Source: Nitrospiria bacterium (GTDB taxonomy: Bacteria > Nitrospirota > Nitrospiria > Nitrospirales > NS-4). From it: DNA of 64,000 nt. How positions within the stretch are numbered: the stretch's first letter is position 1; each line of letters opens with the position of its first letter. Positions 1 to 38,759 of this stretch are shown here, one piece after another. The stretch is from NCBI GenBank assembly GCA_041490525.1, contig JBGPTH010000014.1, forward strand, positions 1,983 through 65,982, given 5' to 3'. The notes below the pieces were generated by a model. The model made no database searches and was not told where the DNA came from. It worked only from the letters and a program-made list of their open reading frames with translations. Made by a program: the position numbers and the translations under genes.

Positions 1-2
1 TT

Positions 3-434: not shown

Positions 435-452
435 CAGTGGAGGCGTCTCATC

Positions 453-1286: not shown

Positions 1287-1309
1287 GGGAATCTGAGGAG
1301 GGGAGCGGC

Positions 1310-2032: not shown

Positions 2033-2035
2033 GCG

Positions 2036-2986: not shown

Positions 2987-3780
2987 CCCGGCAGCAAGTC
3001 CTCGGGACCCTCGTCGCGGCGGGCGTGACGGCGCTGGCCGGGTTCGCCGGCTGTGCGCTGTTCGAAAGCGCGCACGTGAGCAAGGGACGGGCGCTCTACG
3101 CGTACTACTGTTCCCACTGCCACGGGGCGCACGGCAAACCGGGCGAAGGCTTTAACTGGAAGTCCATGCCGGACCCCAAACCCAAGGACCTGGCCAACAA
3201 GGACGAGATGAGCACGCTGAAGGACGAAGAACTCTTCGCGACCATCTCCCGCGATATGAAGGACACGACGCCGAACGTCGGCGACAAGATCGGCGACGAC
3301 GAGTTTGCGGTGCCCACCATGCCGACCTTCAAGCACACGCTCTCGGAAGAGGAGCAGTGGTCGCTCGTGGCGTTCGTGCGCACGCTGCACGGGACGAAGG
3401 TGGGCCAGGTGGACTGGGCGTCGCTGAAGAAGGACCGCCCCAAGGGAGCGCCGATTCCGAAGCCCGTGCTGACGGCCACCCCCGCCGATGAGGCCAAATT
3501 GGCGGAGCGCGGCAAGCAGCTGTACTTCAACAAGTACGGCTGCAACGCCTGTCATAAGATCGGGACGACCGGCGGAGAGGTCGGGCCGCCTTTGGACCGG
3601 GCCGGGTTTCGGCTGAATGCCTCCTGGGTGTACCGGTGGATCCGCTATCCCCAGATCATGAAGCCCGAGACCAAGATGCCCAATCTCGGGATCAGTGATG
3701 ACGACGCGAAGGCCCTCATGTATTACCTGAAGACCCTGAACGCCCCGCCGCCCGAGAAACCTCTGCCGGCGTCGTCCTAA
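2983..3780 (+). CDS. Dihaem cytochrome c lipoprotein
   Basis: ATGA overlap with previous stop; lipobox FAGC; CSHCH and CNACH; PETKMP distal Met. Confidence 0.85.
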   Translation: MTRQQVLGTLVAAGVTALAGFAGCALFESAHVSKGRALYAYYCSHCHGAHGKPGEGFNWKSMPDPKPKDLANKDEMSTLKDEELFATISRDMKDTTPNVGDKIGDDEFAVPTMPTFKHTLSEEEQWSLVAFVRTLHGTKVGQVDWASLKKDRPKGAPIPKPVLTATPADEAKLAERGKQLYFNKYGCNACHKIGTTGGEVGPPLDRAGFRLNASWVYRWIRYPQIMKPETKMPNLGISDDDAKALMYYLKTLNAPPPEKPLPASS

Positions 3781-3804
3781 ATTTCACATGGCACGTTCGA
3801 TTCG

Positions 3805-3832
3805 GTAGGGGCACGGCGCGCCGTGCCCCTAC
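3805..3832. repeat. Perfect 28-nt GTAG-type REP palindrome between convergent genes
   Basis: GTAGGGGCACGGCG|CGCCGTGCCCCTAC is self-complementary. Confidence 0.8.
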
Positions 3833-3833
3833 G

Positions 3834-4712
3834 TTATCGAAAGATCACCCCGCTCCAGATTCCCGCAAGAATGAGTGCGCCCACCCAGGCGTGCTGCCTG
3901 AACAGCGTGAAGGCCGCGGCGGGAGAGACCCCGCGCTTGACCCGCCAGCTCTGGTAGGCGAACAGTGCGGAGGCCAGAACAAGCGCCAGATAGAACGGCA
4001 GGGTGAGGCGGGCGGCCATCCCGACGAGGGTCAGGAAGAGGACCATTACGGCCAGGGCCCCCAACACAGCCAGCCACGTCCATCGCCCGAAGAGGAGGGC
4101 GGCGGACAGGACGCCGATGCGCACGTCATCCTCGCGGTCTTGGAGCGCGTAGATCGTGTCATACCCGATGGCCCAGAAGACGGTCGCCAGGAAGAGGCCG
4201 ATGGCCGGCCAGCCGATCTCGTTGCGCACGGCGGCCCAGGCCATGATGGCGCCCCATCCGAACGCGATGCCGAGCACGGCTTGCGGGCAGGCCATCACTC
4301 GCTTGGCCAGCGGGTAGAGGACGGCCAGGAGGACGGCGACGGGCGCGAGCGCGATGGTGAGCGGATTGAGCAGGGCGACTAACCCCGCCGCCACGAGGAT
4401 CAGCCCGACGAACACCCCCAGGGCGGTCCTTGGCGGTATGCGGCCCGAAGCCACGGGGCGGTTCTGGGTGCGCCGGACGCGGCGGTCCAGGTCGCGGTCC
4501 CCGAGATCGTTGATGGTGACCCCCGCGCTTCGCATGACGAAGGCCCCGGCGATAAAGATGGTCGTGAGCGAAAGAGGCGGATGCCCGTCGCCCGCCAACA
4601 CCAGTGCCCAGAGCGTCGGGAACACTAACAACAGGGATCCGGTCTGATTGCGAAGCCGGATCAGATCGGCCAGGGAGGACCAGGAGACCGGGCCGTCCGG
4701 GGGGTGCGCCAT
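3834..4712 (-). CDS. ubiA: 4-hydroxybenzoate polyprenyltransferase
   Basis: RSAGVTINDLGDRDLDRRV.RT.NRP.ASG and YDTIYALQDREDD motifs; only the C-terminal 293 codons of the 3834..6410 ORF. Confidence 0.92.
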   Translation of the reverse strand: MAHPPDGPVSWSSLADLIRLRNQTGSLLLVFPTLWALVLAGDGHPPLSLTTIFIAGAFVMRSAGVTINDLGDRDLDRRVRRTQNRPVASGRIPPRTALGVFVGLILVAAGLVALLNPLTIALAPVAVLLAVLYPLAKRVMACPQAVLGIAFGWGAIMAWAAVRNEIGWPAIGLFLATVFWAIGYDTIYALQDREDDVRIGVLSAALLFGRWTWLAVLGALAVMVLFLTLVGMAARLTLPFYLALVLASALFAYQSWRVKRGVSPAAAFTLFRQHAWVGALILAGIWSGVIFR

Positions 4713-4817
4713 GGGCCGCATGCTACCGGGATGGACAGCGGGGATCAAGTAGGGTATAAGGCACACTATCTCGTGCACATCGCGGCTCCCCCCATTCCAT
4801 TCAGGAGACTCAGGCAC

Positions 4818-6707
4818 GTGTGCCTCTCGGCTCCGGTCCTGCGCCCCGTCCTCCGGATATTCCTGGTGCTTCTGCTGACGGGATTGGCCGGATGCGGCCA
4901 AAAACTCGTGTTTCCACGCCTGGAGTTCAAATCCGAAGAACGCGCCGCTCCCAGCATCCCCCTGACCGTCCGCCTGGACATCCCGGACGCGTTGCGACAG
5001 GCGCAGATGTTCTATCGGGACTCGTGCAACGTGCCCCAGGCGATCCCCTTGGGAGAGCGCCTGGCCGAACAGGTCAAAGCGGACGCCGCCCAAGTGTTTG
5101 AGAAGACCTTTGAAGGCAAACCCACCGATCCAGCGGACGCCGTCCTCACCGCGGTCCTGGAGACCAGCGAGATAGACCTCCATATCCCGCGCAGGGAAAT
5201 CGGGGAGTATCCCTTGAAGGTCTTGGTCCGCCTGCGGCTGCGGGTGAAGGATGCCGAGGGAAAAATCCTGTTCGATGAAGCCATCAAGGGCGAAGGGAAA
5301 TGGACCGCCAGGACGGATGGGACCGAGTGCACGGTCCAGGGCCTGATGCTGCCGGTCACGGAGGCGGTGGAAAAGCTGTCGGACCGGGAGGTGGAGAGCC
5401 TGACCCAATCGGTCAGGATTCGGGATACGGCGATCCGACTGCAGACCCGGAAGGAGATGGGGGCCGCGGGGAGACCGCCCGCGGGACCTCCTGCGCAAGT
5501 ACAACCTGGGCGGGAACCCCCCGGGCTGAGCTTTCGGGCGTCGCTGGAAGACGAGAACCGCAATCAGGTTCTGGATGCCGGGGAGAAGGTCGTAGTCCGC
5601 GTGGAGGTCTCCAACAGCGGTCCCGGCGTGGCGCGGGGGGTGGCCGTCGTCCTCTCGGGAACGCCCGCCCTCGTCAAGGAGTTCATCAATCCGACCCAAA
5701 TGGGCGATCTGCAGCCGGGTGAGAAGAAGCAGGTGGCGATCACGTCGACGCTGTCGTCTGCCCTGGCCGACCAGCAGGCGGAACTGGTGGTCCAGGTGAC
5801 CGAGGCGGCCGGCTTCGGCGTGCCGACGAAGAAGCGGTTCGTCGCGGTGATCCAGTCTGGGAAGGGGGAAGGGGAGACGGTCGAGGTGCTCTCCGTCGAC
5901 GTGGACCAGGTCCCGGCGCGTGTGCAGGGCTTTGATCGGCGCACCTCGTACGCCGTCGTGGTGGGCATCGGGATCTATCGGGAGGAAGGGGTGCCGCGCC
6001 TCAAATATGCCAAGCGGGATGCGGAGGTGGTCGGCAAGCATCTGACCGCCATCGCGGGGTTCCCCTCCGAGAACGTTCGGGTGTTGACGGATGAGCGGGC
6101 CCTGCTGACGGATCTTCAAGACGCCTTTGAGGACTGGTTGCCGCAAAAGGCCAACGCCTCGGGGATCACCATCATCTATGTGGTGGGCAACGGCGTGATC
6201 AATCAGGCGAGCGGCGAGCTTCTCCTGGTTCCGTATGAAGGCCGGGTGGATGCCGCCCGTCGTGCCTATTCCATCAAGCGGCTCCAAGAGGCCTTGAGCC
6301 GCTTGCCGTCCCGGCTGAATATCATTTTTGCCGATCTGTCGTTTCCCAGCACCAAGGACGACGCAGGCCCCGGCCCGAAGACCCTCCTCTGGGGGGACCG
6401 CAAACCGCAAGGGAAAGGACGTACGGTCACCGTGGGGTCGTCATCGGTGGCCGGGCCCAGCCTGCCATGGGATGCCGCCCAGCACGGCCTGTTCACCTAT
6501 CACTTCCTCAAGGCCATCCGGGGGCACGCAGATGCCAACGGCAACGGGTGGGTGGATCTCGGTGAGGTGCTGACATTCCTGAAGGAGCAGGTTCCCAAGG
6601 CCGCCGCCGATCTCAAGAAAGAACAGGCGCCGGTGGTCAGTCCGGAGGTGGACCCGGAGGGCCCGATCGGGTCCTTTCCGGTCAGCAAGGCGAAACGCCC
6701 GAGCTAG
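4818..6707 (+). CDS. Lipoprotein with Ig-like (CARDB-type) middle domain and C-terminal caspase-like (peptidase C14) domain, catalytic residues apparently absent
   Basis: GTG at 4818 after AGGAG; lipobox LAGC; YAVVVGI..Y...LKYA.RDA, HGLFT..FL..I.G.AD.NG.G.V...E. Confidence 0.7.
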   Translation: MCLSAPVLRPVLRIFLVLLLTGLAGCGQKLVFPRLEFKSEERAAPSIPLTVRLDIPDALRQAQMFYRDSCNVPQAIPLGERLAEQVKADAAQVFEKTFEGKPTDPADAVLTAVLETSEIDLHIPRREIGEYPLKVLVRLRLRVKDAEGKILFDEAIKGEGKWTARTDGTECTVQGLMLPVTEAVEKLSDREVESLTQSVRIRDTAIRLQTRKEMGAAGRPPAGPPAQVQPGREPPGLSFRASLEDENRNQVLDAGEKVVVRVEVSNSGPGVARGVAVVLSGTPALVKEFINPTQMGDLQPGEKKQVAITSTLSSALADQQAELVVQVTEAAGFGVPTKKRFVAVIQSGKGEGETVEVLSVDVDQVPARVQGFDRRTSYAVVVGIGIYREEGVPRLKYAKRDAEVVGKHLTAIAGFPSENVRVLTDERALLTDLQDAFEDWLPQKANASGITIIYVVGNGVINQASGELLLVPYEGRVDAARRAYSIKRLQEALSRLPSRLNIIFADLSFPSTKDDAGPGPKTLLWGDRKPQGKGRTVTVGSSSVAGPSLPWDAAQHGLFTYHFLKAIRGHADANGNGWVDLGEVLTFLKEQVPKAAADLKKEQAPVVSPEVDPEGPIGSFPVSKAKRPS

Positions 6708-6731
6708 GCCATCGAGACGGACGAGGCCTGC

Positions 6732-6760
6732 TTGATTCCCCACGACAAGCTTGCTAAAGT
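6732..6760 (+). promoter_or_regulatory. Sigma70-type promoter of tRNA-Thr
   Basis: TTGATT-17 nt-TAAAGT with extended TG, 8 nt before the tRNA. Confidence 0.65.
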
Positions 6761-6768
6761 CGCGCGAG

Positions 6769-6843
6769 GCCGGCGTAGCTCAGTGGTAGAGCAGCTGATT
6801 CGTAATCAGCAGGTCGGTGGTTCAATCCCACTCGCCGGCTCCA
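6769..6843 (+). tRNA. tRNA-Thr(CGT)
   Basis: Acceptor GCCGGCG/CGCCGGC-T-CCA, D arm AGCTCAGTGGTAGAGC, anticodon stem GCTGA/TCAGC with loop TTCGTAA, T loop GGTTCAATCC. Confidence 0.97.
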
Positions 6844-6890
6844 GCAATAATCAATCGCCTCTTTCCCAATCTCTTCTCGGCTCACTCGAA

Positions 6891-8318
6891 TCACAGCCCT
6901 GCGTTGGCGAGAGCCCAGACAAGGGACAGGGTCAGGCGCGTCGCGGATGCGAGAATGTCGGGGCTGATCTTCTCGGGCGTATCGGTCGGTTGGTGAAAGT
7001 CCGGATGCGGTCCGGAGCTGACGATCGCGGCTGTGGGGATGGCGGCCTCGGCGAACGGGACATGATCGCCTCCGGGGAAGAGGCCGAAGAGTTCCAGCTG
7101 GGCACCCAGGCCGACGGTGTCGGCGGCGGCTTGGGCCGTGACTTTCTCCAGTCGTGAGAGCCCCACCGTGAGCTTGCCGGTCCCGACCCCGGCATGGTCC
7201 ACATTGATCATCGCCTTGGTGTCGGAAAGCGGCCGGGCCGGATGGGCGACGTAGAACCGGGATCCCAGCAGTCCCTGCTCCTCCCCGGCAAGGGCCAGGA
7301 AGAGAATGCTTCGCTTGGGCTTAGCCTCCGCGGCCGCGAGCACTCGGGCCACCTCCAGCAGGACCGCCGAGCCGGAGGCGTTATCGTCGGCTCCGGGAAA
7401 GACGGTCCCATCCTGGACGCCGAAATGGTCATAGTGGGCGCCGAGGATGATGGTCTCGTGGCGGAGGTCGGGGTCTGAACCTGGCCAGAGGCCAAGCACG
7501 TTGGCCGCGTCGGCGTTCGATTGGCTCTGGTCCATCTCGATGGTCATGACACTGCCGGTCTCCACGGACCGGGGGGAGAGGGCCCGGTCCATATCTTTTT
7601 GAAACGATTCCAGGGTTATCCGGACCGGCACCAGGAAGGTGTCCGCCACGGCGGGGGCAATCCACAGACCGGGGAGGGCCTCGGCGGGGTCCTCGCCGTA
7701 GAAGGCCATCGGGCGTTGGCTCATGCCTCGTCGGTGTTCGTAAGGGGTCAGGAGGGGTCCGGTGACGGTCAGGTAGGCCACGGCTCCTTTCGCCCGGGCG
7801 GTCCTCACTTTCTCTCGGTGCGTGCCGCGCCCGGTATAACCCTTTGGCTGCCCTCGGAGGAAGAGCACCACCTTTCCGCTCACAGACAAACCGGCGTACT
7901 CGTCCAAACCGAGCACGGAATCTGCAATCCCATAGCCGACGAAGACCACCTGGACCGAGGCCAGGTGAGCCTGGGCCCCGTTCAGGATAGGGATGAAATC
8001 ACTCGTGTTTTGAAGCCTTTTGGTGTGACCGCCGGCCGTAAGGCTGACCTTCACCGGAGGGCAGATCTGAAGGGCCCGGATGGGGAAGGATTGGAGAGAA
8101 GCCTGGGGCAAACGCCGTTGAAGGTAGGCCGCGGCGGCCTCCCCGCCCGGAGTCCCGGATTGGCGGCCGTGGAACAGGGAAAGGTCCCGGACGGTTTCCA
8201 TGAGGCGACCCTGCGACACGTGGGCGTCCAGGCGGTTCTGAATCGGTGGCTCGCCGGTAAGGGGGTCCAAGGGAATCAGCGTCAGCGTCAGGAGGACCAA
8301 GAGAAGAACGCCGCGCAT
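6891..8318 (-). CDS. M28 family Zn aminopeptidase with PA domain, secreted
   Basis: Signal peptide; GAHYDH, GADDNASG, GEEQGL.GS, GDH.PF, FHQPTD motifs. Confidence 0.9.
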   Translation of the reverse strand: MRGVLLLVLLTLTLIPLDPLTGEPPIQNRLDAHVSQGRLMETVRDLSLFHGRQSGTPGGEAAAAYLQRRLPQASLQSFPIRALQICPPVKVSLTAGGHTKRLQNTSDFIPILNGAQAHLASVQVVFVGYGIADSVLGLDEYAGLSVSGKVVLFLRGQPKGYTGRGTHREKVRTARAKGAVAYLTVTGPLLTPYEHRRGMSQRPMAFYGEDPAEALPGLWIAPAVADTFLVPVRITLESFQKDMDRALSPRSVETGSVMTIEMDQSQSNADAANVLGLWPGSDPDLRHETIILGAHYDHFGVQDGTVFPGADDNASGSAVLLEVARVLAAAEAKPKRSILFLALAGEEQGLLGSRFYVAHPARPLSDTKAMINVDHAGVGTGKLTVGLSRLEKVTAQAAADTVGLGAQLELFGLFPGGDHVPFAEAAIPTAAIVSSGPHPDFHQPTDTPEKISPDILASATRLTLSLVWALANAGL

Positions 8319-8448
8319 GGAAAAATTATACCACGAGGGAAGGGGAGACCTGGCGGGCCACCCTCCGGTATAAAAGGGTGGGGAGGCTCAGGGCCTGTCG
8401 GGGGCGCGCCCGGACATCCTGACAGTACGCGCCATCTTATCTTTCTTC

Positions 8449-8477
8449 TTGCTTTCTGTTCCGTCTTTCTGTAGAGT
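8449..8477 (+). promoter_or_regulatory. Putative sigma70 promoter of the desaturase
   Basis: TTGCTT-17 nt-TAGAGT. Confidence 0.5.
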
Positions 8478-8635
8478 CAGCGCCGCTTGGTCGCCTCCAG
8501 AGGGCTGCGGATGAGGGTGCCACTCCAAATGGTGCGGCGTGGAAGTAGCGTGGCCCCACCCCAACCTCATCCAAAAGACGCGGCAGTATTTTTACGAAGA
8601 GACTGCAATTCACCCGGATATGTGAGGGAGGGAGC

Positions 8636-9514
8636 GTGGAGCGTATTGCCGGAAGTGCGCAGCCGTCACCGATGCGAATCGACTATGCCGCGCTGTCGTT
8701 GTTCCTGGCGATCACGATTACGGCGGCCGTCGCCGTTCCGGTGTACGGGTATTACATCGGGTATACCTGGGTGGACTGGACACTCTGCGCCGTGCTCTAC
8801 CTGGCCTCGGGGTTGGGCATCACGGTGGGCTACCATCGCCTGATCGCCCATCGGAGTTTTGAGTGTCAGCAGTGGATCAAGATCGCCTTGTTGATCACCG
8901 GCGGATGGGCGCTGGAGAATTCGGCCTACAAATGGTGCGCCGACCACGTCAGACACCATGCCCGCTGTGATCAGGCCGAGGATCCCTACAACGCCACGCT
9001 CGGTTTCTGGCACAGTCACGTGCTGTGGGTTTTCTATAAAGATCCCACGCAGCATCATGAAAAATACGCCGCCCAGTTCCAAAGGGATCCGCTCGTCATG
9101 TGGCAACACCGCTACTATATCCCGGTCGTGCTCTCCGGCATGGCCCTCCCCTTCGCGGTGGGTTACGGAGTCGGAGGGTGGAAGGGGGGACTCGGATGTT
9201 TTCTGCTGGCCGGCCTGGGGCGGATGTTTTTGGTGCTGAATTCCACGTTCTGCATCAATTCCATCTGCCACCTGTGGGGGAAACAGCCACATACGACGGA
9301 GGACTCAAGCCGGGACAATTGGGTCGTGTCGTTGATTACCTTCGGAGAGGGGTACCACAATTACCACCACGCGCATCAGCGGGACTACCGGAACGGGCCC
9401 TGGTGGTACAACATCGATCCGTCGAAATGGCTGATCTACGGCTTGTCCAAGATCGGCGTGGCCTGGAATCTCTGCCGGGTCCAACCTGAGCGGACACGGT
9501 TTGCGGCGGAGTGA
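8636..9514 (+). CDS. Membrane acyl-CoA delta-9-type fatty acid desaturase
   Basis: His boxes HRLIAH, HVRHH, HNYHH; FGEGYHNYHH and DPSKW motifs. Confidence 0.92.
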   Translation: MERIAGSAQPSPMRIDYAALSLFLAITITAAVAVPVYGYYIGYTWVDWTLCAVLYLASGLGITVGYHRLIAHRSFECQQWIKIALLITGGWALENSAYKWCADHVRHHARCDQAEDPYNATLGFWHSHVLWVFYKDPTQHHEKYAAQFQRDPLVMWQHRYYIPVVLSGMALPFAVGYGVGGWKGGLGCFLLAGLGRMFLVLNSTFCINSICHLWGKQPHTTEDSSRDNWVVSLITFGEGYHNYHHAHQRDYRNGPWWYNIDPSKWLIYGLSKIGVAWNLCRVQPERTRFAAE

Positions 9515-9605
9515 CGGCAGGCCTGCAGCGCAATGGGATGAAGGGACGCAACGCTCAACAGTTAACGGACCGCCTCGCGGTTCTCCATGACGAAAGGAGT
9601 GACGA

Positions 9606-9890
9606 ATGGCCAAAGCGATGACAAAGTCACAGGTTACCGAACACTTGGCAGGAAAAGCGGGCCTCACCAAAAAGGCGGCCGCTCAAATTCTTGATGACCT
9701 GGCCGCGCTCGCGTATAAGGAGGCCAAGAACACCTTTACCTTGCCTGGGCTCGGGAAGCTGGTGTTGGTGAATCGGAAAGCCAGGATGGGCCGCAACCCG
9801 CAGACCGGCGAGCCCATCAAGATTCCAGCCAAGCGGGTGGTCAAGTTCCGGGTCGCGAAGGCGTGCAAGGACGCCGTGCTGAAAAAATAA
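9606..9890 (+). CDS. hup: Histone-like DNA-binding protein HU
   Basis: GLGKL..V.RKAR.GRNPQTGEPIKIPAK.VVKF. Confidence 0.95.
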   Translation: MAKAMTKSQVTEHLAGKAGLTKKAAAQILDDLAALAYKEAKNTFTLPGLGKLVLVNRKARMGRNPQTGEPIKIPAKRVVKFRVAKACKDAVLKK

Positions 9891-9916
9891 CTCGGCTTGC
9901 TATCGAGACCAATCAG

Positions 9917-9960
9917 GGAGGGCTGTCCGGGTGACTCCGGGCGGCCCTCCTTCGTTTCTT
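9917..9960 (+). terminator. Intrinsic terminator after HU (probably bidirectional)
   Basis: GGAGGGCTGTCCGGG-TGAC-TCCGGGCGGCCCTCC stem followed by TTCGTTTCTT. Confidence 0.75.
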
Positions 9961-10309
9961 ACAGGAGGGCCTTCACCTTCTCGGGGGGCCGTCCCAGGAC
10001 CGCCCGGTCCCCCTTTTCGATGATCGGGCGCTGGATCAACTCCGGGTAGACGACCATCAGGTTGATGAGCTCCGCGTCCGACACCGCTTTTTCATGGAGG
10101 CCCAGTTTTTTGTAGGTCTCCTCCCCGGTCCGGAGGATCTCGCGCGGCGAGAGGCCGAGCTTCGTGAGCAGCCGTCTCAGCGTGGCGGCGGACATCGGAG
10201 AGGCGAAATAATCGATGGTCACGAAGGGCGCCTTCGCTTCGCGCAGCAGCGCCAGCGTTTGGCGGCAGGTTGAGCAGGTCGGCTTCTGATACACGATCAA
10301 TTTCTCCAT
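9959..10309 (-). CDS. ArsC/Spx/MgsR family thioredoxin-fold protein
   Basis: YQKPTCSTCR, LIQRPII motifs; ATG at 10309. Confidence 0.85.
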   Translation of the reverse strand: MEKLIVYQKPTCSTCRQTLALLREAKAPFVTIDYFASPMSAATLRRLLTKLGLSPREILRTGEETYKKLGLHEKAVSDAELINLMVVYPELIQRPIIEKGDRAVLGRPPEKVKALL

Positions 10310-10415
10310 GCGCGAGTCCTCCCCACCTGCGCTTGGTGATACCAATGAAGAAGACGGGTTGTCAAGCGGAGGCGGGTGGGAGGAGGCTCGCGCTCCCCGG
10401 AGGAGAAGGGTGGGC

Positions 10416-11399
10416 GTGAACCCGGTAGGCCTCGGCTTCGGGTTGATCGGCATGGGGCGGCACGGGAGCCGCTACGCCCGCCACCTTGTGGAGGGGATTC
10501 CGGGATGCCGCCTCACGGCGGTCTCGCGCCGCGATGTGGGGGCTGGACAGGCGTTTGCGGATCGCCATGAGGTGGCGTTCGTGGGGGACTGGCGGGATCT
10601 CATTCGCCGTCCCGACGTCACCGCCGTGGTGGTCGTCGTCCCCCCGGCGCTCAACCGAGAGGTGTGTCTGGCGGCCGCCCAGGCAGGGAAATCCCTGTTG
10701 ATTGAAAAACCGCTGGCGCTGACGGCCGCGGAAGCCGTTGAGATGGTCCGTGCCGCGCGCGCCGCCGGGGTCCGGCTCATGACCGCTCAGACGCTCCGGT
10801 TCACGCCGGTCTTGCGCCGCCTCCGGGAGCGCCTTCCGCTCGTCGGGGCCCTCGACTACCTCACGCTGACGATGCGGGCTGAGCGGCCCCCGCACCGGTG
10901 GCTGGATGATCCGGCGCAGGCGGGCGGGGGGGTTCTTATCGAAATCGGTATCCATTTGTTGGACCTCATCCGCTTTCTCACCGGTGAGGAAGCGGTGGAA
11001 GTCTCCGCCGAACTCGCCAGGCGGCACACGCGTCGGGTCGAGGACTTGGCCTGGGCGAGAATCCTCCTGGCGTCTGGTGTCCGGTGCCTCCTCGAGGTGT
11101 CGCGGGTATCTGGCGGCCGCCTGGTCCGTGTGGAGGCCGTCGGCCAGGCGGGGCAACTCATTGCGGAGGTCGATCGGAGTGTGCTGAGTCGGATCGAGGG
11201 GCGCAGTCTCGTCGAGACGGAGTCGGTTCCAGACCGGCCGACGATCGTCACGGTTCTGGAAGAATTCGCCCGAAGCCTCTCGACAGGAACTCCGTTGCCG
11301 GTCTCCGGGGAGGACGGTCTGCGGGCCGTGGCGATGGCCGAGTCGTGCTACCAGTCGGCCCGCGAGGCCCGGCCGGTCCGGGTTCCCCTTCTCTCTTGA
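10416..11399 (+). CDS. Gfo/Idh/MocA family oxidoreductase
   Basis: GLIGMGRHG, LIEKPLA, GGG.L.EIGIH..D motifs. Confidence 0.9.
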   Translation: MNPVGLGFGLIGMGRHGSRYARHLVEGIPGCRLTAVSRRDVGAGQAFADRHEVAFVGDWRDLIRRPDVTAVVVVVPPALNREVCLAAAQAGKSLLIEKPLALTAAEAVEMVRAARAAGVRLMTAQTLRFTPVLRRLRERLPLVGALDYLTLTMRAERPPHRWLDDPAQAGGGVLIEIGIHLLDLIRFLTGEEAVEVSAELARRHTRRVEDLAWARILLASGVRCLLEVSRVSGGRLVRVEAVGQAGQLIAEVDRSVLSRIEGRSLVETESVPDRPTIVTVLEEFARSLSTGTPLPVSGEDGLRAVAMAESCYQSAREARPVRVPLLS

Positions 11400-11478
11400 C
11401 CCTTGCCCCTCGCGCATGATACCTGATAAAAAACGCCCTTCGGGGCGGGCGCGCTGAAGAGGATCTGGAATCACACCC

Positions 11479-11859
11479 GTGGGAGTGGAAGAAGGACGAT
11501 TTGCGCAGCCCCGCGGATTTGCGGTGGCCACGGCCGATTCGCGTAACCTCCGGGACCTCCGCCAGCGCCGCTACGGACAACCGGTGTACGTGGCGTCGGG
11601 CCATCCGCTGGCCCGTAAAGGCCAGGTGGCCACGTGGGAGAAGTTCAATGTGCGGCTGGCGGTGGTCAAATTCCCGGACAATGCGGTCTTGGGGTACGAC
11701 CCGGCAGACCTGCTGCTCCCCACGCGGTTCGAGGCGGACGGGACGCCCCTCTTCGAGGTCCGCCACTGTGAACTCTGCCAAGCACCCTTCATCCTGACGC
11801 AACAGGAGGTGGAGGACAAGCGGGACCTCGCCCGCTGCCTCGCCTGCCAGGACGTCTGA
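11479..11859 (+). CDS. Hypothetical protein with C-terminal CxxC...CxxC zinc-ribbon-like motif
   Basis: Host-like codon usage; CELCQ and CLACQ. Confidence 0.6.
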   Translation: MGVEEGRFAQPRGFAVATADSRNLRDLRQRRYGQPVYVASGHPLARKGQVATWEKFNVRLAVVKFPDNAVLGYDPADLLLPTRFEADGTPLFEVRHCELCQAPFILTQQEVEDKRDLARCLACQDV

Positions 11860-11877
11860 CCGCTGCCGCGGACCCGC

Positions 11878-12765
11878 CTACAACCGTCTCCCCAGTCTCG
11901 TAAACCGATCGGCCAACAGGACGCCGGTGGCTTTCCACCCGTGCGCCTGCAGGGTGTCCTGAACTGCTGCGATCCGGGTGCTGAAGTTCGGGTGGGTTTT
12001 AAAAAAGGCGCGGTCGTCGCCTTTCACGGCGCGGAGCCGGTTCAACAGGCCCAGGTAAGCCGTGGGGTCGTACCCCGCGCGGGCGGCAAAGGCCACGCCC
12101 AGGGTGTCGGCCTCGATTTCTTTGCTTTGGTCGAGCCCCTCGTCGAGCAGCTTTTTGACGGCGGTATCGATGAGTCCTTTGAAGGCCTCGGGATTCTGCT
12201 TCGCATACGCCAGGCCGGCTTCGGAGATGCCCCCCAGCTGTTTGCTCCGCTGGATCACCTCGAGGATGTGCTTCTGGCTCACATGGCCGATCTCATGCCC
12301 TAGCACAGCGGCCAGCTCGGCCTCGTTCCGGATTTGCTTCAGGAGGCCGTGCGTGATGAAGACGTAACCCGCCGGCGCTGCGAAGGCATTGATCGACTCG
12401 TGGTTGAGCACGGCGAAGTGATAGGGGATGTCGGGGCGGTCGCAGGTGAGCGCCACGGCCCGGCCGACCAGGTTGACGTAGCGGGTCAGGTCGGGCTGGT
12501 CCTGGACCCCGCCGTACCGCGCCACGACTTGGAGCGAGATGGCGGCCCCGAGGGATTGTTCTTCCTCGTAGCCGATCGGCAGGAGTCCGCTGACGAGCGT
12601 CCCCCCGCCGTGTATGACCTTGGCGAGCCGATCATCTCCGGACCGTCTGGCCTGCTCCTCGGCGACTTGTTGAATCTCCGCGCATCCCCCTAAGATGCCC
12701 GTCACGGCGAGCGCCGCGAGCGCCCCGGACAGGGGGGCGAAGGTGTGCCAGGTCTTATTTCGCAT
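11878..12765 (-). CDS. M48 family metalloprotease lipoprotein
   Basis: Lipobox LGGC; INAFA.P.G..FIT.GL, HEIGH, E.EAD, HP motifs. Confidence 0.9.
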   Translation of the reverse strand: MRNKTWHTFAPLSGALAALAVTGILGGCAEIQQVAEEQARRSGDDRLAKVIHGGGTLVSGLLPIGYEEEQSLGAAISLQVVARYGGVQDQPDLTRYVNLVGRAVALTCDRPDIPYHFAVLNHESINAFAAPAGYVFITHGLLKQIRNEAELAAVLGHEIGHVSQKHILEVIQRSKQLGGISEAGLAYAKQNPEAFKGLIDTAVKKLLDEGLDQSKEIEADTLGVAFAARAGYDPTAYLGLLNRLRAVKGDDRAFFKTHPNFSTRIAAVQDTLQAHGWKATGVLLADRFTRLGRRL

Positions 12766-34108: not shown

Positions 34109-34780
34109 GTGACCCGCACACACCCGCCCGCCCCGGACGCAGCTCAACGCGTCCTTTTCACGGGAAGACTCTATCTGATCCTCGATCCGTCCGTCGCGGG
34201 TTCCCGCTCTCTGCCTGATCTCGTGGGAATGGCGCTGGCCGCCAAGGTCCGAACCTTTCAGTTGCGGATGAAGACCCCGGAGACGGGTGCCTTCTATGAG
34301 ATGGCGTCCGCGCTCTGTCCGTTGGTGCAGGATGGTGGGGGAGCCTTCATTGTGAACGACCGATGCGATGTGGCCCTGGCCGTGGGGGCTGACGGGGCCC
34401 ATCTGGGCCAGGAGGATCTGCCGCTGGCCGACGCGCGGGCGTTTCTGGGGCGGGAGAAGCTCATCGGCGTCTCGACCCACAATCTGACCCAGGCGCTCGA
34501 GGCCGAGGCCGGGGGCGCGGACTACATTGGCTTCGGCCCGATCTTTCCCACGACGACGAAAGAGAAGCCCGACCCAGTGGTGGGCGTGGCGGGCCTGCGT
34601 GAGGTGCGCGCTCGCGTTCGCATCCCGATCGTGGCCATCGGGGGGATCACCGCGCGCAATACCGCGGAGGTGATGGCCGCCGGCGCCGACGCCGTGGCGG
34701 TCGTCTCGGCAATCCTGGCCGCCGCTGATCCCTCGGCGGCCATTGCGGAGCTGATGAAGGCGATCGAATCCAGGGCTTAG
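34109..34780 (+). CDS. thiE: Thiamine-phosphate synthase
   Basis: QLR.K, IVNDR.DVA, GAHLGQEDL, STH, GP.FPT.TK, AIGGI. Confidence 0.93.
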   Translation: MTRTHPPAPDAAQRVLFTGRLYLILDPSVAGSRSLPDLVGMALAAKVRTFQLRMKTPETGAFYEMASALCPLVQDGGGAFIVNDRCDVALAVGADGAHLGQEDLPLADARAFLGREKLIGVSTHNLTQALEAEAGGADYIGFGPIFPTTTKEKPDPVVGVAGLREVRARVRIPIVAIGGITARNTAEVMAAGADAVAVVSAILAAADPSAAIAELMKAIESRA

Positions 34781-34976
34781 ACGCGGGTCCTGCCGCCGGT
34801 TTCCCCCGCCGGCTTCGGCTGCGAAGACTGGCCTCTAGGCGGCGGGTGGCCCCCTACCAGCGCCACCCGCAAGAAACTCAACCTCCGCTCAAGAAAAAGC
34901 GTGTGGCGGTGAGGCCTTGGGAGGAAGAAAAGGCCTGGCAACTTCCTGAGAGTTGCCAAGCCCCTCTCCTGCTTCA

Positions 34977-36314
34977 TCAGGACTTGATATCACCACTCGG
35001 CAATCCAATATCCACAAGAATTGTAGTTTCTCCAAGTTCCTGCAGCACATTGAACCAAGCGTTCTGGCTCTCTGACAACCTATCATGGGGGCCTTTAACC
35101 TCAGCGAAAGCATGCTCGGTATTCTTCCATATGAAAAGGTCTGGAAGCCCTCGCCGGTTTTCGTTGAAGTTCTTTAATAGTCGATGCATGATTGAAAGCA
35201 GTTGGGATTTGGGCAGGTGTGTGATGACATTCCGAAGATCGTTCAGCGAAAACTTATCCCAGTTTTCGATAGGCCGACATGGCTTCCCGTAATGATCTGA
35301 ATAAGCCTGCTCCAATTCTTGGTTCAGATCAGCAAACTCAAGGACCTTCAAACGTTCGGTTATCAAGCGCTCTCGTTTGGCGAAAAACTCTGGATGGAAA
35401 AAGTCCTGCGGCATGTCCTGCATTTTCGATGGAAAGGGTCCGAACAGTGGCTCCCAGACGCCATCGATTCGAGCAAATATTACATCCCAGAAGAGCAGCG
35501 CCATTAGAGTCCACCAAAGTTGGTTCTCTCCCCATATCCCATCCCACCCTTCACTTCTCAGGTGGTGAAGCGCGACCTGTTCAACAAAGCCCTCAAATTG
35601 ATCGGGCAGTTGAAATTGTGCCTTTCCATGTTCTGTGATCTTTGTAGCGGTAATGCTCATCGTCTGAATTTCTGGATGTTGTGCTGCTGGTATTAACCCT
35701 TGACCTTTGGGAATGGGTGCGGCAGACCTAGACGGGAACAGCAGAAAGAGACGATAGGTTTGCCCATGCCTTTCACGGCGAAGGCGTCCGGCCTTTTCGA
35801 GCCATTGCACCAATGTGCTTGGCCGTCGCCCATCTTCCGTGGCGAGATGCTTCTTGAGATCTGCTTGGAGCACGCCAGGATCACGGGAAACTAAATCCAG
35901 GATCTTATCGACGATATCTGCATCCTTCTCAGCCGTTTCCGCGGCACCTATCCACATCTGAAGTTCCGGGGTCTCCGATAGCGCTTTGCGCAAATCGGCG
36001 ATCCCTCCTCTGTCGCCCATGACAGCCATCAGGGTACTTCCGGTTTCCACTGCAACGGAGTACTGGATGTCGAATCGTCCGTATTCCCGCTTCACTGCTT
36101 CAACAAAAGCCGGAAGGAGGGGATAAGTTCGGCGGGCATATAGGATTGCGGTCCGGTAATCGTGCGCTTTTTGGGCTGCCTCGATCTTTGCGTGGAGCTG
36201 AAAATACTTGTCAACGACGGGGTCATTTTTACCGATTGAATACGAAGGGGGCAATGGGTCCTTTGGACGAAATTCTGGAAGATTCCAGAAGAGGCGTTTC
36301 AAGAAATTGAGCAT
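34977..36314 (-). CDS. VRR-NUC (FAN1-like PD-(D/E)xK nuclease) domain protein with helical and winged-helix-like N-terminal region
   Basis: GIWGEN..W.TL..LLFWD.IF, QDMPQDF, RGLPDL..W, EVKGP.DRLS..Q..W. Confidence 0.8.
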   Translation of the reverse strand: MLNFLKRLFWNLPEFRPKDPLPPSYSIGKNDPVVDKYFQLHAKIEAAQKAHDYRTAILYARRTYPLLPAFVEAVKREYGRFDIQYSVAVETGSTLMAVMGDRGGIADLRKALSETPELQMWIGAAETAEKDADIVDKILDLVSRDPGVLQADLKKHLATEDGRRPSTLVQWLEKAGRLRRERHGQTYRLFLLFPSRSAAPIPKGQGLIPAAQHPEIQTMSITATKITEHGKAQFQLPDQFEGFVEQVALHHLRSEGWDGIWGENQLWWTLMALLFWDVIFARIDGVWEPLFGPFPSKMQDMPQDFFHPEFFAKRERLITERLKVLEFADLNQELEQAYSDHYGKPCRPIENWDKFSLNDLRNVITHLPKSQLLSIMHRLLKNFNENRRGLPDLFIWKNTEHAFAEVKGPHDRLSESQNAWFNVLQELGETTILVDIGLPSGDIKS

Positions 36315-36440
36315 TTTATGGCTGTCTTGTGGGAGGAGAAAAAGATCCGGGAGTCTTTTCCAGATCTTCTAGGCGTTCTTCAGAGACGGTCTGTCGATCA
36401 ATGCCTCCTGGCCAATTTCCCCACACTTTTCCAGCCCCTC

Positions 36441-36491
36441 GTGGCTGCTCACACCCATACCAGCGGCCGTCGGTTCAGGCGCTGGTTAGGC
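36441..36491 (-). repeat. Left part of an integron attC-like site downstream of the HEPN-like gene; right half not recognisable
   Basis: GCCTAAC (RYYYAAC) 13 nt after the TGA, followed by CAGCGCCTGAACCGACGGCCGCTGG. Confidence 0.6.
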
Positions 36492-36504
36492 ATCGACTCG
36501 CTAC

Positions 36505-37149
36505 TCATACTGACGCCGTTGGCGGACAGATTAGAGATTCCATTTCAGCGAGATACTTGTCGTAAGTGTTCCAGCCGAGAGCCACGAGGAGCACCTCGTT
36601 TGCGTAAACGGTGATAGTCGGATTTGACAGTTCGAACGCGAGGTCGGACAGCATTTGTGGGTAGAAGGCGGCAGACAAAGCCTCGAACACCTTCTTGGTG
36701 ATGTCGTGTGGCTCCTCTTCGTCCCAATGGCTGTATTGATTCCTGGCTGCGTAGACGATGAGCCCGACCGGGATACCGTGCCTTTCTCGCCCGATACAGA
36801 AAGGAATAGCGGACTTGTTTGAAGACCGAACCACACCTTGGCAGCTCGAAGGTATCAAGTCGTTTCGCGAAAAGAGTCTGATAGCCATGTAAGCCACTTG
36901 GAGTATCGCACCAGCAAACATGGCCTCTGAAAACTTTAAACTAAAGTACTTGCCAGCCAGCTCCAGGTACCTGTGTAGGGCTGCATTTCTATCCGGCGTC
37001 ATAGGTTGGCAGATTTGGCTGATATCCCAATGTTCGAGGGCCTGCTGATAATACGACCAGCAAGAGTCCAAGCCGGCGTAGAGATGTCTCACGGCGTGCT
37101 CGGTATCTCGAAAGTATTCCTCGGGAGTCTTTAGCGCCGTGACCTTCAT
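36505..37149 (-). CDS. Hypothetical protein with HEPN-like R-x4-H motif, in gene-cassette context
   Basis: ARNQYSH in a mainly helical protein; foreign composition. Confidence 0.6.
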   Translation of the reverse strand: MKVTALKTPEEYFRDTEHAVRHLYAGLDSCWSYYQQALEHWDISQICQPMTPDRNAALHRYLELAGKYFSLKFSEAMFAGAILQVAYMAIRLFSRNDLIPSSCQGVVRSSNKSAIPFCIGRERHGIPVGLIVYAARNQYSHWDEEEPHDITKKVFEALSAAFYPQMLSDLAFELSNPTITVYANEVLLVALGWNTYDKYLAEMESLICPPTASV

Positions 37150-37158
37150 TTGTCGTAT

Positions 37159-37190
37159 GCCTAACTAGAAATTGGCAGAACTGTCTCGCT
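37159..37190 (-). repeat. attC-like right end (core site GTTAGGC) 9 nt upstream of the HEPN-like gene start
   Basis: Minus strand AGTTCTGCCAATTTCTA-GTTAGGC-ATACGACAA-ATG. Confidence 0.6.
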
Positions 37191-37427
37191 ACCTCATACC
37201 CTGTGATCCGATAGCCTATCTCATGGCCTCCATATTGGGAGGCTGAATTGAAAACAGGCTACTTTTTGCGTGGAGGTGTGTCAACTTAATACCATAGGTC
37301 AATCACCAGGTGGCAAGACCCAGAGCGAACTTCACTCATTCTCTAAGGTATGGTGGGACTTGGGTCGCGAATCGCGGAAACTCCCCTCGCCCTCTCCCCT
37401 GAAGCACGGGCGAGGAGTTTGTGGGGG

Positions 37428-37460
37428 GCTAGCGCTTACGCTTGGTTTTCGCTTTCGGTT
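37428..37460 (-). pseudogene. Relic copy of the lpxD 3' end (PKAKTKRKR-stop)
   Basis: 30/33 nt identical to 38759..38791. Confidence 0.75.
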
Positions 37461-37545
37461 CGGGCAAAATCAGCTTGCAACAGTTAGGCCCGGTATTCCA
37501 ATTTTGGATCCACTGTGAGGTAGCTCGAAAAAGGAGGTCAGGAAA

Positions 37546-37875
37546 ATGTCGAGGAGATATATTTCCTTGGGTGGTATGATCTTCGTTGCAATAATGGCTG
37601 CTGGATTTGCCGAACAGCTGACTGCGGAGGAAACGTTATTGGAGGGATTTTTCATCACCAAAGAAATTCGTTTCGATGAAAGCATAGGGGAACGAAAGCC
37701 AACACCTCAAATTCCCAAAAGTTGGCAATTCGTCGGTGTTAGTAACGGAGAAAAGATTAATAGCAACAACCTTTGGTTTCAGGATAAGGATGGCAATATC
37801 TATTTGATACAAGGGTTCAATAGTTACGGGCAGTTTATCGTTAGAGAGGGTATACAGAAATTGAAGGCAAAATAA
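37546..37875 (+). CDS. Small secreted hypothetical protein
   Basis: AGGAGG upstream; signal-peptide-like N-terminus; AT-rich. Confidence 0.6.
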   Translation: MSRRYISLGGMIFVAIMAAGFAEQLTAEETLLEGFFITKEIRFDESIGERKPTPQIPKSWQFVGVSNGEKINSNNLWFQDKDGNIYLIQGFNSYGQFIVREGIQKLKAK

Positions 37876-38143
37876 TGGACCAGCTCCTTCCAACCTGTCT
37901 TCCACTTGGTATCTGTGGGGGTATGGAGCACGTCCCAATAATTACCCTATCATTTTGATCTGATTTTCCAAGGGACCTCCGCTACGCGGAATTGCTTGCG
38001 TGGGACGTTATACCTGCACAACGGAAATGTCTAGTCGCGATAGGAGCGGGTGGCACCGAGCGGGTGCCCTGGTCGCCTGGAGCCGAAAGGCTGAAGCCTA
38101 ATGGGGGAAGGGATGTATAAGGACCCGCGTTCAGGAAGGTGCG

Positions 38144-38209
38144 CCCTTCGACAAGCTCAGGGAAAGCGGAAACCCCTCACCCTAACCCTCTCCCGCAAGT
38201 GGCGAGGGG
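38144..38209. repeat. Two adjacent REP-like elements (CCCTTCGACAAGCTCAGGG and CCCCTCACCCTAACCCTCTCCC-GCAA-GTGGCGAGGGG)
   Basis: Resemble common intergenic stem-loop repeat families; a related element lies at 37383..37417. Confidence 0.55.
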
Positions 38210-38247
38210 AAAAGCGAGACTTTTCGCTACGCTCAGCGTGACAACTA

Positions 38248-38523: not shown

Positions 38524-38759
38524 CGCACACTCCTTCCATTAGGAAGTTTCGCGTCTGAAGTCCTAAATCGTGGAGTGTGCAAACTCCGCGCCGTTGCAAA
38601 GGGCGTGTAACTCTATGGAACGAAAGGGCCTGGTGTCAAGAACAGCCGGCCTATGACGGGGGACAGGTGTGTCATAAACCCTATTAGTGAAGGCTTTTTA
38701 ACGCTTCCAACGCTTCGATGTTGCTTAGGGTTTTGGTTTGCTGCGGAGGGCAGGAGGAG

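What the first reader, a model, noticed from the sequence alone, without database searches (positions are those of the whole stretch)
36441..37190. HEPN-like gene packaged as an orphan integron cassette
Seen (minus strand): GTTAGGC-9 nt-ATG...TGA-13 nt-GCCTAAC, i.e. exactly complementary core and inverse-core sites tightly bracketing one promoterless ORF. The downstream site continues CAGCGCCTGAACCGACGGCCGCTGG like an attC left arm, then decays. The ORF carries RNQYSH (R-x4-H). Established: this geometry is the hallmark of integron cassettes, R-x4-6-H is the HEPN RNase motif, and cassettes often encode antiphage genes. Inference: a stranded defence cassette integrated away from any intI.
Basis: partly seen in the sequence, partly recalled or inferred. 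Interest (0 to 1): 0.7.

Follow-up and report, generated by a model that had tools for sequence, protein, structure and literature searches.

The report
Stranded integron cassette with half attC
The gene is a real former integron cassette from a widespread, unnamed protein family, now stuck in a small foreign island with only half of its recombination site; the idea that it encodes a HEPN RNase rests on one conserved motif only.

Summary
On the minus strand, GTTAGGC(AT) lies 7 nt before the ATG (37149) and its exact complement (AT)GCCTAAC lies 11 nt after the stop (36505). This combination occurs once in the whole genome.

The cassette origin is supported by relatives. The 214-aa protein belongs to an unannotated family spread over many phyla. 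Fifteen of 60 homologous loci have a full attC directly next to the gene, several lie in attC arrays, and one lies beside an intI gene. DNA similarity to 23 loci starts exactly at the G of GTTAGGC.

The window copy is a relic and cannot be moved as a cassette. An attC covariance model built here scores real sites at 20-66 bits but this site at 5.5 bits. Only R'' and about 26 nt of the left arm survive.

The gene was not inserted on its own. It lies in a 3.35-kb low-GC island that is absent from relatives, next to a VRR-NUC nuclease gene. Genes of these two families are adjacent in three separate contexts.

The genome has no intI, but it has a six-site attC array on another contig.

R-N-Q-Y-x-H is conserved across the family. 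Pfam, profile-profile comparison and fold search all fail to place the protein in HEPN.

The parts
37157..37165 (-). 5' cassette junction: GTTAGGC(AT), the R'-derived core site, 7 nt before the ATG. The recombination point would lie between G (37165) and TT.
   Evidence: Sequence. blastn similarity to 23 homologous loci begins exactly at 37165. The same GTTAGGCAT precedes homologues in L016, L009, L006, L042, L051, L052 and L053.
36505..37149 (-). 214-aa ORF of an unannotated, cassette-borne protein family. All family-invariant residues are intact.
   Evidence: ORF list. 208 homologues at E<=0.001. 344 clusters at 50% identity in the representative library. No hit in Pfam, NCBIfam, PADLOC or PHROGs. 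AF2 model with pLDDT 87.8, all-alpha.
36727..36744 (-). Codons for R136-N-Q-Y-S-H141, the R-x4-H motif.
   Evidence: Invariant RNQY.HW in 25 close homologues. R136, Q138 and H141 are at least 90% conserved in 61 sequences down to 23% identity.
36485..36493 (-). R'' core site (AT)GCCTAAC, 11 nt after the stop. It is the exact complement of the upstream site.
   Evidence: Sequence. The identical ATGCCTAAC starts the complete attC of the homologous cassettes in L016/L057 and L009.
36459..36484 (-). Surviving attC left arm (spacer plus L''-like segment), which also forms a small hairpin, CCAGCGCC-N9-GGCCGCTGG.
   Evidence: Aligns with the left arms of real attCs (L051 26 of 33, also L055, L017 and own-genome C2). 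The covariance model places it on model positions 1-30. Hairpin fold z = -2.3.
36410..36458 (-). Place where the attC right arm and R' should be. No complementary arm and no GTTRRRY are present.
   Evidence: The best model alignment over 36491-36410 scores 5.5 bits. No hit in the whole window at E<=10 with filters off.
34977..36314 (-). Downstream neighbour: 445-aa protein with a C-terminal VRR-NUC nuclease domain (PD..EVK motif intact by eye) and an N-terminal domain of a small family.
   Evidence: Pfam VRR_NUC at 9.5e-19. N-terminal domain family of 15 proteins. Members are adjacent to a gene of the 214-aa family in the window, L006 and L142.
34881..38246 (.). Foreign low-GC island (about 50% GC against 65% in the flanks) inserted between convergent thiE and a conserved 91-aa ORF. 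The left border is approximate.
   Evidence: Composition profile. Relatives have thiE and the 91-aa ORF abutting. blastn shows native DNA only up to about 34768 and from 38247. A contig in run X14 joins 34732 to 38234.

Best explanation
This is a relic integron cassette.

The 214-aa gene belongs to a protein family that travels between distant bacteria as a single-gene integron cassette. The window copy keeps the 5' cassette junction (G|TTAGGC). It also keeps the first third of its attC: R'' (GCCTAAC), the spacer and an L''-like arm. The right arm and R' have been lost. IntI could therefore no longer fold and excise it, and the genome has no intI in any case (shown).

The gene did not enter this chromosome as a cassette. 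It arrived inside a 3.35-kb foreign island, together with a VRR-NUC nuclease gene. The island was inserted in the terminator region between thiE and a small conserved ORF (shown). How the island was inserted is unknown.

What the protein does is inferred. It is an all-alpha protein with no detectable relatives of known fold. Its most conserved polar residues are R136, Q138 and H141. The most likely activity is metal-independent RNA cleavage of the HEPN type, used as a toxin-like or anti-phage effector. I put this at about 0.3-0.35. It may work together with the adjacent VRR-NUC protein, since genes of the two families are repeatedly found side by side.
For: Cassette origin:
- The homologue in L016 lies about 220 nt after an intI gene (TIGR02249, 464 bits) and has a complete attC.
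- A covariance model built from 21 attCs that flank homologues shows covariation in its helices. It finds 81 sites in homologue loci, including arrays in L049, L059, L052, L081, L047 and L009.
- 15 of 60 non-redundant loci have an attC directly adjacent to the gene.
- DNA homology to 23 loci starts at the G of GTTAGGC.

Relic state:
- The model gives no hit in the window at E<=10.
- It scores the downstream site at 5.5 bits and finds nothing at the upstream site.
- It scores 30-38 bits on attCs of the same genome.
- The left arm is homologous to real attC left arms.

No intI: best TIGR02249 hit is 88 bits against a cut-off of 265, and only Xer-like hits appear.

Island:
- None of 60 relatives has the gene.
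- Gene order in relatives shows the empty site.
- The island is low in GC.

Protein:
- The motif is invariant or nearly so.
- The structure model is confident and all-alpha.
- The gene is linked to the N-terminal domain family of the VRR-NUC protein in three separate contexts, with a different gene order in one.
Against: - The attC model was built here from sites near family members, not from the curated IntegronFinder model. A very atypical site could be missed.
- The assembly has 62 contigs, so an intI in a gap cannot be strictly excluded. Completeness is 99%.
- HEPN chemistry rests on the motif only. No HEPN Pfam model reaches significance in 86 members scanned; there are two stray hits at E 0.13-0.18.
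- hhalign against HEPN_Apea gave 64% probability with a 5-sequence profile. This fell to 3% with a 17-sequence profile, and only the motif aligned.
- Foldseek finds no solved HEPN structure or anything else (best E 0.9, TM <=0.33).
- PADLOC gave no hit.
- In the model, R136 lies in the middle of a helix rather than at its start.
- Most relatives of the VRR-NUC protein's N-terminal domain have no such neighbour.
Confidence: 0.75

Rival explanations
1. It is an intact orphan cassette that can still be mobilised. On this reading the downstream site is a complete but unusual attC, inserted at a secondary (attG-like) site by an IntI supplied in trans.
For: Both core sites are perfect. The left arm looks genuine. 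The model's best alignment ends at AAATTGGCC, which could be a hybrid R'. Insertion of cassettes at attG sites in genomes is documented (Loot et al. 2024, cited in PMC12901181). The genome holds other attC sites.
Against: The site scores 5.5 bits, against 20-66 bits for real sites, including sites in the same genome. There is no arm complementary to the L'' segment and no GTTRRRY within 150 nt. Both flanks are foreign DNA rather than native chromosome, so this is not a cassette inserted into a genomic attG site here.
Confidence: 0.07
2. The inverted repeat is a coincidence, or it marks the ends of another element such as a MITE or transposon with terminal repeats, around an ordinary island gene.
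For: Exact bracketing repeats of 9 nt or more occur at 218 of 68,353 ORF combinations in the genome. A second 9-nt repeat (GCCAATTTC at 37176-37168 and GAAATTGGC at 36419-36411) abuts the first on one side. Together they resemble a split 20-nt terminal repeat.
Against: The same core sites flank homologues in many phyla, and there they belong to full attCs in arrays. Homology to those loci starts at the G|TT point. No transposase and no second copy of the gene are present in the genome.
Confidence: 0.03
3. The functional and mobile unit is a two-gene module, made of the RNQYxH protein and a partner that carries the N-terminal domain of the VRR-NUC protein. The cassette marks are only leftovers of the first gene's past.
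For: The two families are adjacent in the window, in L006 (partner has a DnaJ domain, 79-nt gap) and in L142. In L142 the partner is 73% identical, the gene order is reversed, and the RNQ(F)xH gene is only 44% identical and still preceded by GTTAGGG. The partner family is tiny (15 proteins), so chance adjacency three times is very unlikely. The partner's relatives sit among restriction, helicase and relaxase genes.
Against: About 57 of 60 loci of the 214-aa family lack this partner, and in arrays the cassette holds this one ORF alone. Six of the nine or so partner-family contexts examined lack the 214-aa family. Reshuffling of neighbouring cassettes in one array lineage could also produce both gene orders.
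Confidence: 0.3
4. The protein is not a HEPN RNase. It is a new-fold protein with some other activity, and R/Q/H serve another active site or a binding site.
For: No significant HEPN match by Pfam, profile-profile comparison or fold search. No PDB sequence match. Other residues are equally conserved and are not part of the HEPN signature: Y12, T16, S94, C118 and the FCIG..G.P.G loop.
Against: R-N-x3-H with a following aromatic residue is the commonest form of the HEPN motif; the Apea examples fetched here read RNQFTHF and RNYLTHY. The protein is all-alpha. It is cassette-borne and neighbours toxin genes, such as MazF in L006. HEPN families are notoriously divergent.
Confidence: 0.5

Closest known systems
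Integron gene cassettes and their decayed or stranded forms (CALINs; cassettes outside integrons; attC x attG insertions)
   Same: The 5' junction is G|TTRRRY, there is a single ORF, and R'' follows the stop with an L''-type left arm. Homologues are bona fide cassettes in arrays and beside intI. The host genome has a CALIN but no intI.
   Different: The attC lacks its right half, so the defining recombination site is not functional. The gene sits in a larger foreign island and not in an array or at a native-genome attG site.
HEPN superfamily RNases (for example the Apea-type HEPN PF18739, HepT/DUF86, the HEPN domains of Cas13 and Csm6, and the KEN domain PF06479)
   Same: A conserved R-N-x3-H motif followed by an aromatic residue, all-alpha architecture, a stand-alone protein of about 200 aa, and a mobile, defence-like genomic setting.
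   Different: No significant sequence, profile or fold similarity to any HEPN family tested. In the model the motif lies mid-helix. Additional invariant residues (Y12, T16, S94, C118) are not part of the HEPN signature.
Anti-phage systems carried on integron cassettes (Darracq et al., bioRxiv 10.1101/2024.07.02.601686)
   Same: A compact single-gene cassette of unknown function, patchy distribution across phyla, and nuclease and toxin genes as neighbours.
   Different: No match to any PADLOC model. No phage or toxicity data. The copy studied here is no longer in an integron.

Membership tests
Integron gene cassette (mobilisable) | 5' boundary at the recombination point G|TTRRRY | tested here: met
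   GTTAGGC at 37165-37159. Similarity to 23 homologous loci begins at 37165.
Integron gene cassette (mobilisable) | Complete attC at the 3' end (R''-L''...L'-R' with paired arms) | tested here: not met
   Model R1 gives 5.5 bits for 36491-36410 and no hit at E<=10 in the window. Real sites score 20-66 bits. Only R'' plus the left arm is present.
Integron gene cassette (mobilisable) | Relatives occur as cassettes in attC arrays or next to IntI | tested here: met
   15 of 60 loci have an adjacent attC. Arrays occur in L049, L059, L052, L081, L047 and L009. L016 lies beside an intI scoring 464 bits.
Integron gene cassette (mobilisable) | Integron integrase in the genome | tested here: not met
   Best TIGR02249 hit is 88.5 bits against a cut-off of 265. 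tblastn with two IntI proteins finds only hits of 26-34% identity on C18 and C21.
CALIN (attC cluster lacking an integrase) in the host genome | Two or more attC sites in one orientation, a few hundred to about 2000 nt apart, with no intI nearby | tested here: met
   G000:C2, six sites at 6521-12025, all on the minus strand, 30-38 bits, low GC, ORFs without Pfam hits. This array is on another contig, not in the window.
HEPN superfamily | Conserved R-x4-6-H motif | tested here: met
   RNQY.HW is invariant in A1. R136, Q138 and H141 are at least 90% conserved in A4.
HEPN superfamily | Significant sequence or profile similarity to a described HEPN family | tested here: not met
   Pfam scan of 86 members gives only HEPN_Apea at E 0.18 and Ribonuc_2-5A at E 0.13, one member each. 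hhalign against HEPN_Apea gives 64% with 5 sequences and 3% with 17 sequences.
HEPN superfamily | Four-helix HEPN core fold | tested here: inconclusive
   Confident all-alpha model. Foldseek against PDB and BFVD gives nothing at E<0.001 and TM <=0.33. Helical bundles are hard for this method, and model coordinates could not be inspected.
HEPN superfamily | Metal-independent RNase activity that depends on R and H | not testable with these tools
   Needs biochemistry.
Known anti-phage defence systems (PADLOC) | Match to a defence-system protein model | tested here: not met
   No PADLOC hit for the 214-aa protein, the VRR-NUC protein or the 109-aa ORF.

The most novel reading that the evidence does not exclude
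The RNQYxH family is a new-fold nuclease effector that works as a compact defence or toxin gene. It spreads as an integron cassette and forms a previously undescribed two-gene module with proteins that share the N-terminal domain of the VRR-NUC protein, whose effector end is swapped between VRR-NUC and DnaJ.
Probability: 0.15. Interest if true: 0.7.

Novelty: new member of a known kind. Interest (0 to 1): 0.4.

Why it matters
This locus gives a clean, datable example of what happens to an integron cassette once it leaves the integron. The 5' junction and R'' survive, and the right arm of the attC is lost.

It also defines an unannotated protein family that cassettes carry across at least ten phyla: about 344 clusters at 50% identity, with no Pfam model and no structural neighbour. 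The family has a three-residue conserved signature that can be mutated directly.

If the family proves to be an RNase or a defence effector, it would add to the growing list of defence genes stored in integrons. The repeated pairing with a VRR-NUC or DnaJ partner would then point to a new two-component system.

If not, this remains an ordinary decayed cassette in a small genomic island.

Tried and rejected
- A simple search for RYYYAAC...GTTRRRY pairs with end pairing gave many false positives in coding DNA. I replaced it with a covariance model.
- RNAalifold on the raw MAFFT alignment of attCs gave no consensus, so I supplied the structure by hand and checked it by pair counts.
- Free-energy z-scores do not separate real attCs from the relic. 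Real sites ranged from z = +0.9 to -2.9, so I did not use them.
- I looked for expression data. Only DNA sediment metagenomes hold the sequence.
- The promoter scan found nothing in the island.
- Profile searches against PDB sequences found nothing.
- The first, thin HEPN_Apea profile gave an encouraging 64%. This did not survive a better profile.
- I asked whether the VRR-NUC gene is itself a cassette. The model found no attC in L142 or the other partner loci. There are only weak hints: a GGATAGGCAT upstream of the gene in L156, and AGGAGGCAT in the window.
- I considered the 14-nt direct repeat 34842/38251 as an att duplication. It is better explained as part of the native terminator palindrome, which is also present in relative L130.

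Full report
**1. The observation**

On the minus strand the region reads GTTAGGCAT (37165-37157), ACGACAA, ATG (37149), a 214-codon ORF, TGA (ending at 36505), GTAGCGAGTCG, ATGCCTAAC (36493-36485), then CAGCGCCTGAACCGACGGCCGCTGG. The repeat finder reports the two arms as 12 nt, 92% complementary, with 9 nt exact. RNQYSH is residues 136-141 (36744-36727).

I tested how unusual this geometry is on the whole genome, which is 2.82 Mb in 62 contigs.
- Of 68,353 start/stop combinations of 100 aa or more, in six frames, 218 are bracketed within 30 nt by some exact inverted repeat of 9 nt or more.
- Only one, this ORF, has GTTRRRY upstream together with its exact complement downstream.
- The geometry is therefore real and unique in the genome. 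On its own it would be only mildly significant.

**2. The gene family and its link to integrons**

The protein has no hit in Pfam, NCBIfam, PADLOC or PHROGs. It does have 208 homologues in the 5.8-billion-protein collection. The 120 listed are 57-78% identical to it. It also has 344 clusters at 50% identity in the representative library, nearly all about 210 aa long and single-domain.

Genome records place the family in Nitrospira, Burkholderiaceae, Desulfobacteraceae, Syntrophales, Planctomycetia, Dehalococcoidia, Thermodesulfobacteriota, Alphaproteobacteria, Methylobacter, Desulfobulbaceae, Verrucomicrobiota, Campylobacterota and Methylomirabilota. This is a patchy, HGT-like spread.

Many loci repeat the window's layout when their flanks are printed:
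- GTTAGGCAT (or GTTRRRY) lies a few nt before the ATG.
- (ATG)CCTAAC lies just after the stop.
- In L009, L016/L057, L017, L048, L045, L052, L055 and L067 the downstream site continues into a full R''...R' element.

From 21 such elements I built an alignment and a hand-specified structure: R''/R' pairing, plus a 12-bp L''/L' helix with one unpaired base on the 5' side.
- 77.5% of cells pair, against 28-42% when the 3' partners are slid.
- 12 pairs show changes on both sides.
- The covariation score exceeds all 500 shuffles.

The resulting covariance model R1 finds 81 sites in the homologue loci. Many were not in the seed, and they score 20-66 bits. Same-strand arrays occur in L049 (8 sites), L059, L052, L081, L047 and L009.

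Of 60 non-redundant loci, 15 have a model-detected attC directly abutting the gene and 17 have at least one on the gene's strand. Among the 40 loci with 55% identity or more, 18 show at least a core site.

Five of the 15 genomes holding a homologue encode an integron integrase above the TIGR02249 cut-off. In one of them (L016 = G011:C18), the homologue with its complete attC lies about 220 nt beyond the 3' end of the intI gene, and attC sites lie on both sides of intI.

blastn of the window against all loci starts exactly at 37165, the G of GTTAGGC, in 23 loci. A cassette boundary should look like this. The family is therefore a genuine cassette family, and the window copy carries its cassette junction.

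**3. The state of the window copy**

With filters off, R1 finds nothing near the gene at E<=10 in the whole window.
- Restricted to 36330-36520, its best alignment (36491-36410) scores 5.5 bits. The left arm is placed correctly and the right arm is mostly unpaired.
- The upstream site gives nothing.
- The same model scores 30-38 bits on seven sites elsewhere in this genome, so the failure is not a matter of host-specific attC style.

The 33 nt from GCCTAAC onward align with the left arms of real attCs: L051 at 26 of 33, and also L055, L017, L016 and the genome's own C2 site. With R'' held fixed, only 4-12 of 500 shuffles reach the observed scores. After about 36459 the similarity ends. There is no arm complementary to the L'' segment and no GTTRRRY within 150 nt.

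Free-energy z-scores did not discriminate real sites from the relic and were not used.

Conclusion: half an attC remains. The element is a relic and not a mobilisable cassette.

**4. Genomic setting**

GC drops from about 65% to about 50% between 34.8 and 38.7 kb. None of 60 relatives from the same family or order has the gene.

In six relatives the order is accC-thiE-(91-aa ORF)-lpxD-MBL, and thiE and the 91-aa ORF converge within a few nt of each other. blastn shows native DNA only up to about 34768 and again from 38247. By eye, the native terminator palindrome continues to about 34880.

The window therefore carries an island of about 3.35 kb (34881-38246) containing:
- the VRR-NUC gene (34977-36314, minus strand);
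- the 214-aa gene;
- a 109-aa ORF (37546-37875, plus strand);

One contig in metagenome run X14 joins 34732 to 38234. This is an empty site in a close relative, but it rests on a single contig with a 48-nt side.

Both flanks of the cassette relic are thus foreign DNA. The cassette was not inserted into this chromosome by an integrase at this spot. It came in with the island. No integrase or transposase lies in the island, so the insertion route is unknown.

The genome has no integron integrase. The best TIGR02249 hit is 88 bits against a cut-off of 265, and tblastn finds only hits of 26-34% identity on C18 and C21. It does have a cluster of six attC sites on contig C2 (6521-12025, all on the minus strand, low GC, ORFs without Pfam hits), plus one site on C9. 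This is a CALIN. 'Away from any intI' is correct, but the lineage is not naive to integrons.

**5. The protein**

In 25 close homologues RNQY.HW is invariant, together with Y12, T16, K72, E75, the FC.G loop and others. In 61 sequences reaching 23% identity, the residues conserved at 90% or more are Y12, T16, A19, G80, L83, A86, S94, C118, G120, P127, G129, A134, R136, Q138, H141, F155 and W193. The R-x4-H pair is therefore a core feature of the family.

AlphaFold2 with the alignment gives a confident all-alpha model (pLDDT 87.8, pTM 0.84). It has two long helices (9-38 and 52-93), a short beta hairpin at 121-127, and a helix at 128-143 that carries the motif.

Tests for HEPN membership gave the following results.
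- Foldseek finds no match below E = 0.9 in PDB or BFVD, with TM <=0.33.
- Profile searches of PDB sequences find nothing relevant.
- Scanning all 86 aligned members against Pfam gives two isolated sub-threshold hits to HEPN-type models, HEPN_Apea at 0.18 and Ribonuc_2-5A at 0.13.
- I built HEPN_Apea profiles from genomes and the protein collection. hhalign gave 64% probability with five sequences. With 17 sequences it gave 3%, and only the 15 motif columns aligned.

HEPN membership is therefore not supported beyond the motif. It is not excluded either, because HEPN families are very divergent. I rate HEPN-type RNase chemistry as the single most likely activity, at about 0.3-0.35. The alternative, that this is a new fold with another activity, is at least as likely.

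**6. The neighbour**

The 445-aa neighbour has a C-terminal VRR-NUC domain and an N-terminal domain of about 200 aa. That domain is found in only 15 proteins, two of them with VRR-NUC and most of the others with a DnaJ domain.

A gene of the 214-aa family is adjacent to a member of this small family in three contexts:
- the window;
- Nitrospira L006, where a 692-aa DnaJ-type partner lies 79 nt downstream;
- metagenome contig L142. There the VRR-NUC partner is 73% identical and lies upstream. The RNQFxH gene is only 44% identical and is still preceded by GTTAGGG 10 nt before its start.

Six other partner-family contexts lack it. About 57 of 60 loci of the 214-aa family lack the partner. The linkage is too frequent for chance, given how small the partner family is, but it is not obligatory. 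It may reflect a facultative two-gene module or shared residence in one array lineage.

**7. Comparison with what is known**

The element behaves like a decayed integron cassette. CALINs, stranded cassettes and IntI-mediated insertion at genomic attG sites are all known (Loot et al. 2024, as cited in PMC12901181). It fails the defining test for a functional cassette, which is a complete attC.

Cassettes often hold anti-phage genes (bioRxiv 10.1101/2024.07.02.601686). Earlier notes of this scan describe several other unannotated, cassette-borne proteins with an Rx4H motif in other genomes. These are unchecked leads, but they suggest this is a recurring theme and not a singular find.

**8. Verdict**

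The cassette origin is well supported, but the element is a relic inside a larger island. The HEPN and defence reading remains a hypothesis resting on one motif. Novelty: a new member of a known kind. Interest is moderate, at 0.4.

Noticed in passing
Own genome, contig C2:5000-13000 (outside the window; locus L154) and C9:4039-4101 (L155): A cluster of six attC sites (30-38 bits, all on the minus strand) separates ORFs of about 170-250 aa with no Pfam hits, in a low-GC stretch. No integron integrase is present anywhere in the assembly, so this is a CALIN. A single further attC lies on C9.
   Followed up: partly
window 37424-37462 versus 38755-38793: A 39-nt relic of the lpxD 3' end (34 of 39 identical, stop codon included) lies inside the foreign island, 1.33 kb from the real lpxD end. 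It suggests that part of the island once lay beside an lpxD gene in a related genome.
   Followed up: partly
window 34780-34870 and 38166-38212: Both island borders coincide with short palindromic sequences that have 5-10 times higher summed contig depth in metagenomes and match many unrelated contigs. These are REP-like repeats and possible recombination hot spots.
   Followed up: no
window 34977-36314; loci L006 6704-8782, L142 399-1712, L140, L143-L147: The N-terminal domain (about 200 aa) of the VRR-NUC protein defines a tiny family of 15 proteins whose C-terminal end is either VRR-NUC or a DnaJ-containing region. Members sit next to restriction-modification, SNF2 or UvrD helicase, relaxase or integrase genes.
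   Followed up: partly
L016 (G011:C18) 1-12642: An intI gene (4704-5765, plus strand) has attC sites on both sides: minus-strand sites upstream of its 5' end, and mixed-orientation sites beyond its 3' end. This is an unusual two-sided layout.
   Followed up: no
L006 5343-5901 and 2422-3399: In the Nitrospira relative, a MazF/PemK toxin gene lies just upstream of the homologue, possibly with an antitoxin. A weak, probably degenerate tyrosine-recombinase ORF lies 2.6 kb away.
   Followed up: no
window 37546-37875 (+): The 109-aa ORF in the island has a signal-peptide-like N-terminus. It has no homologue in relatives and no family hit.
   Followed up: no
window 37168-37176 and 36411-36419: A second exact 9-nt inverted repeat (GCCAATTTC / GAAATTGGC) abuts the upstream core site and lies 64 nt beyond the downstream one. 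The covariance model uses its downstream copy as a poor R'. Its origin is unexplained; it may be a palindromic target site or chance.
   Followed up: partly
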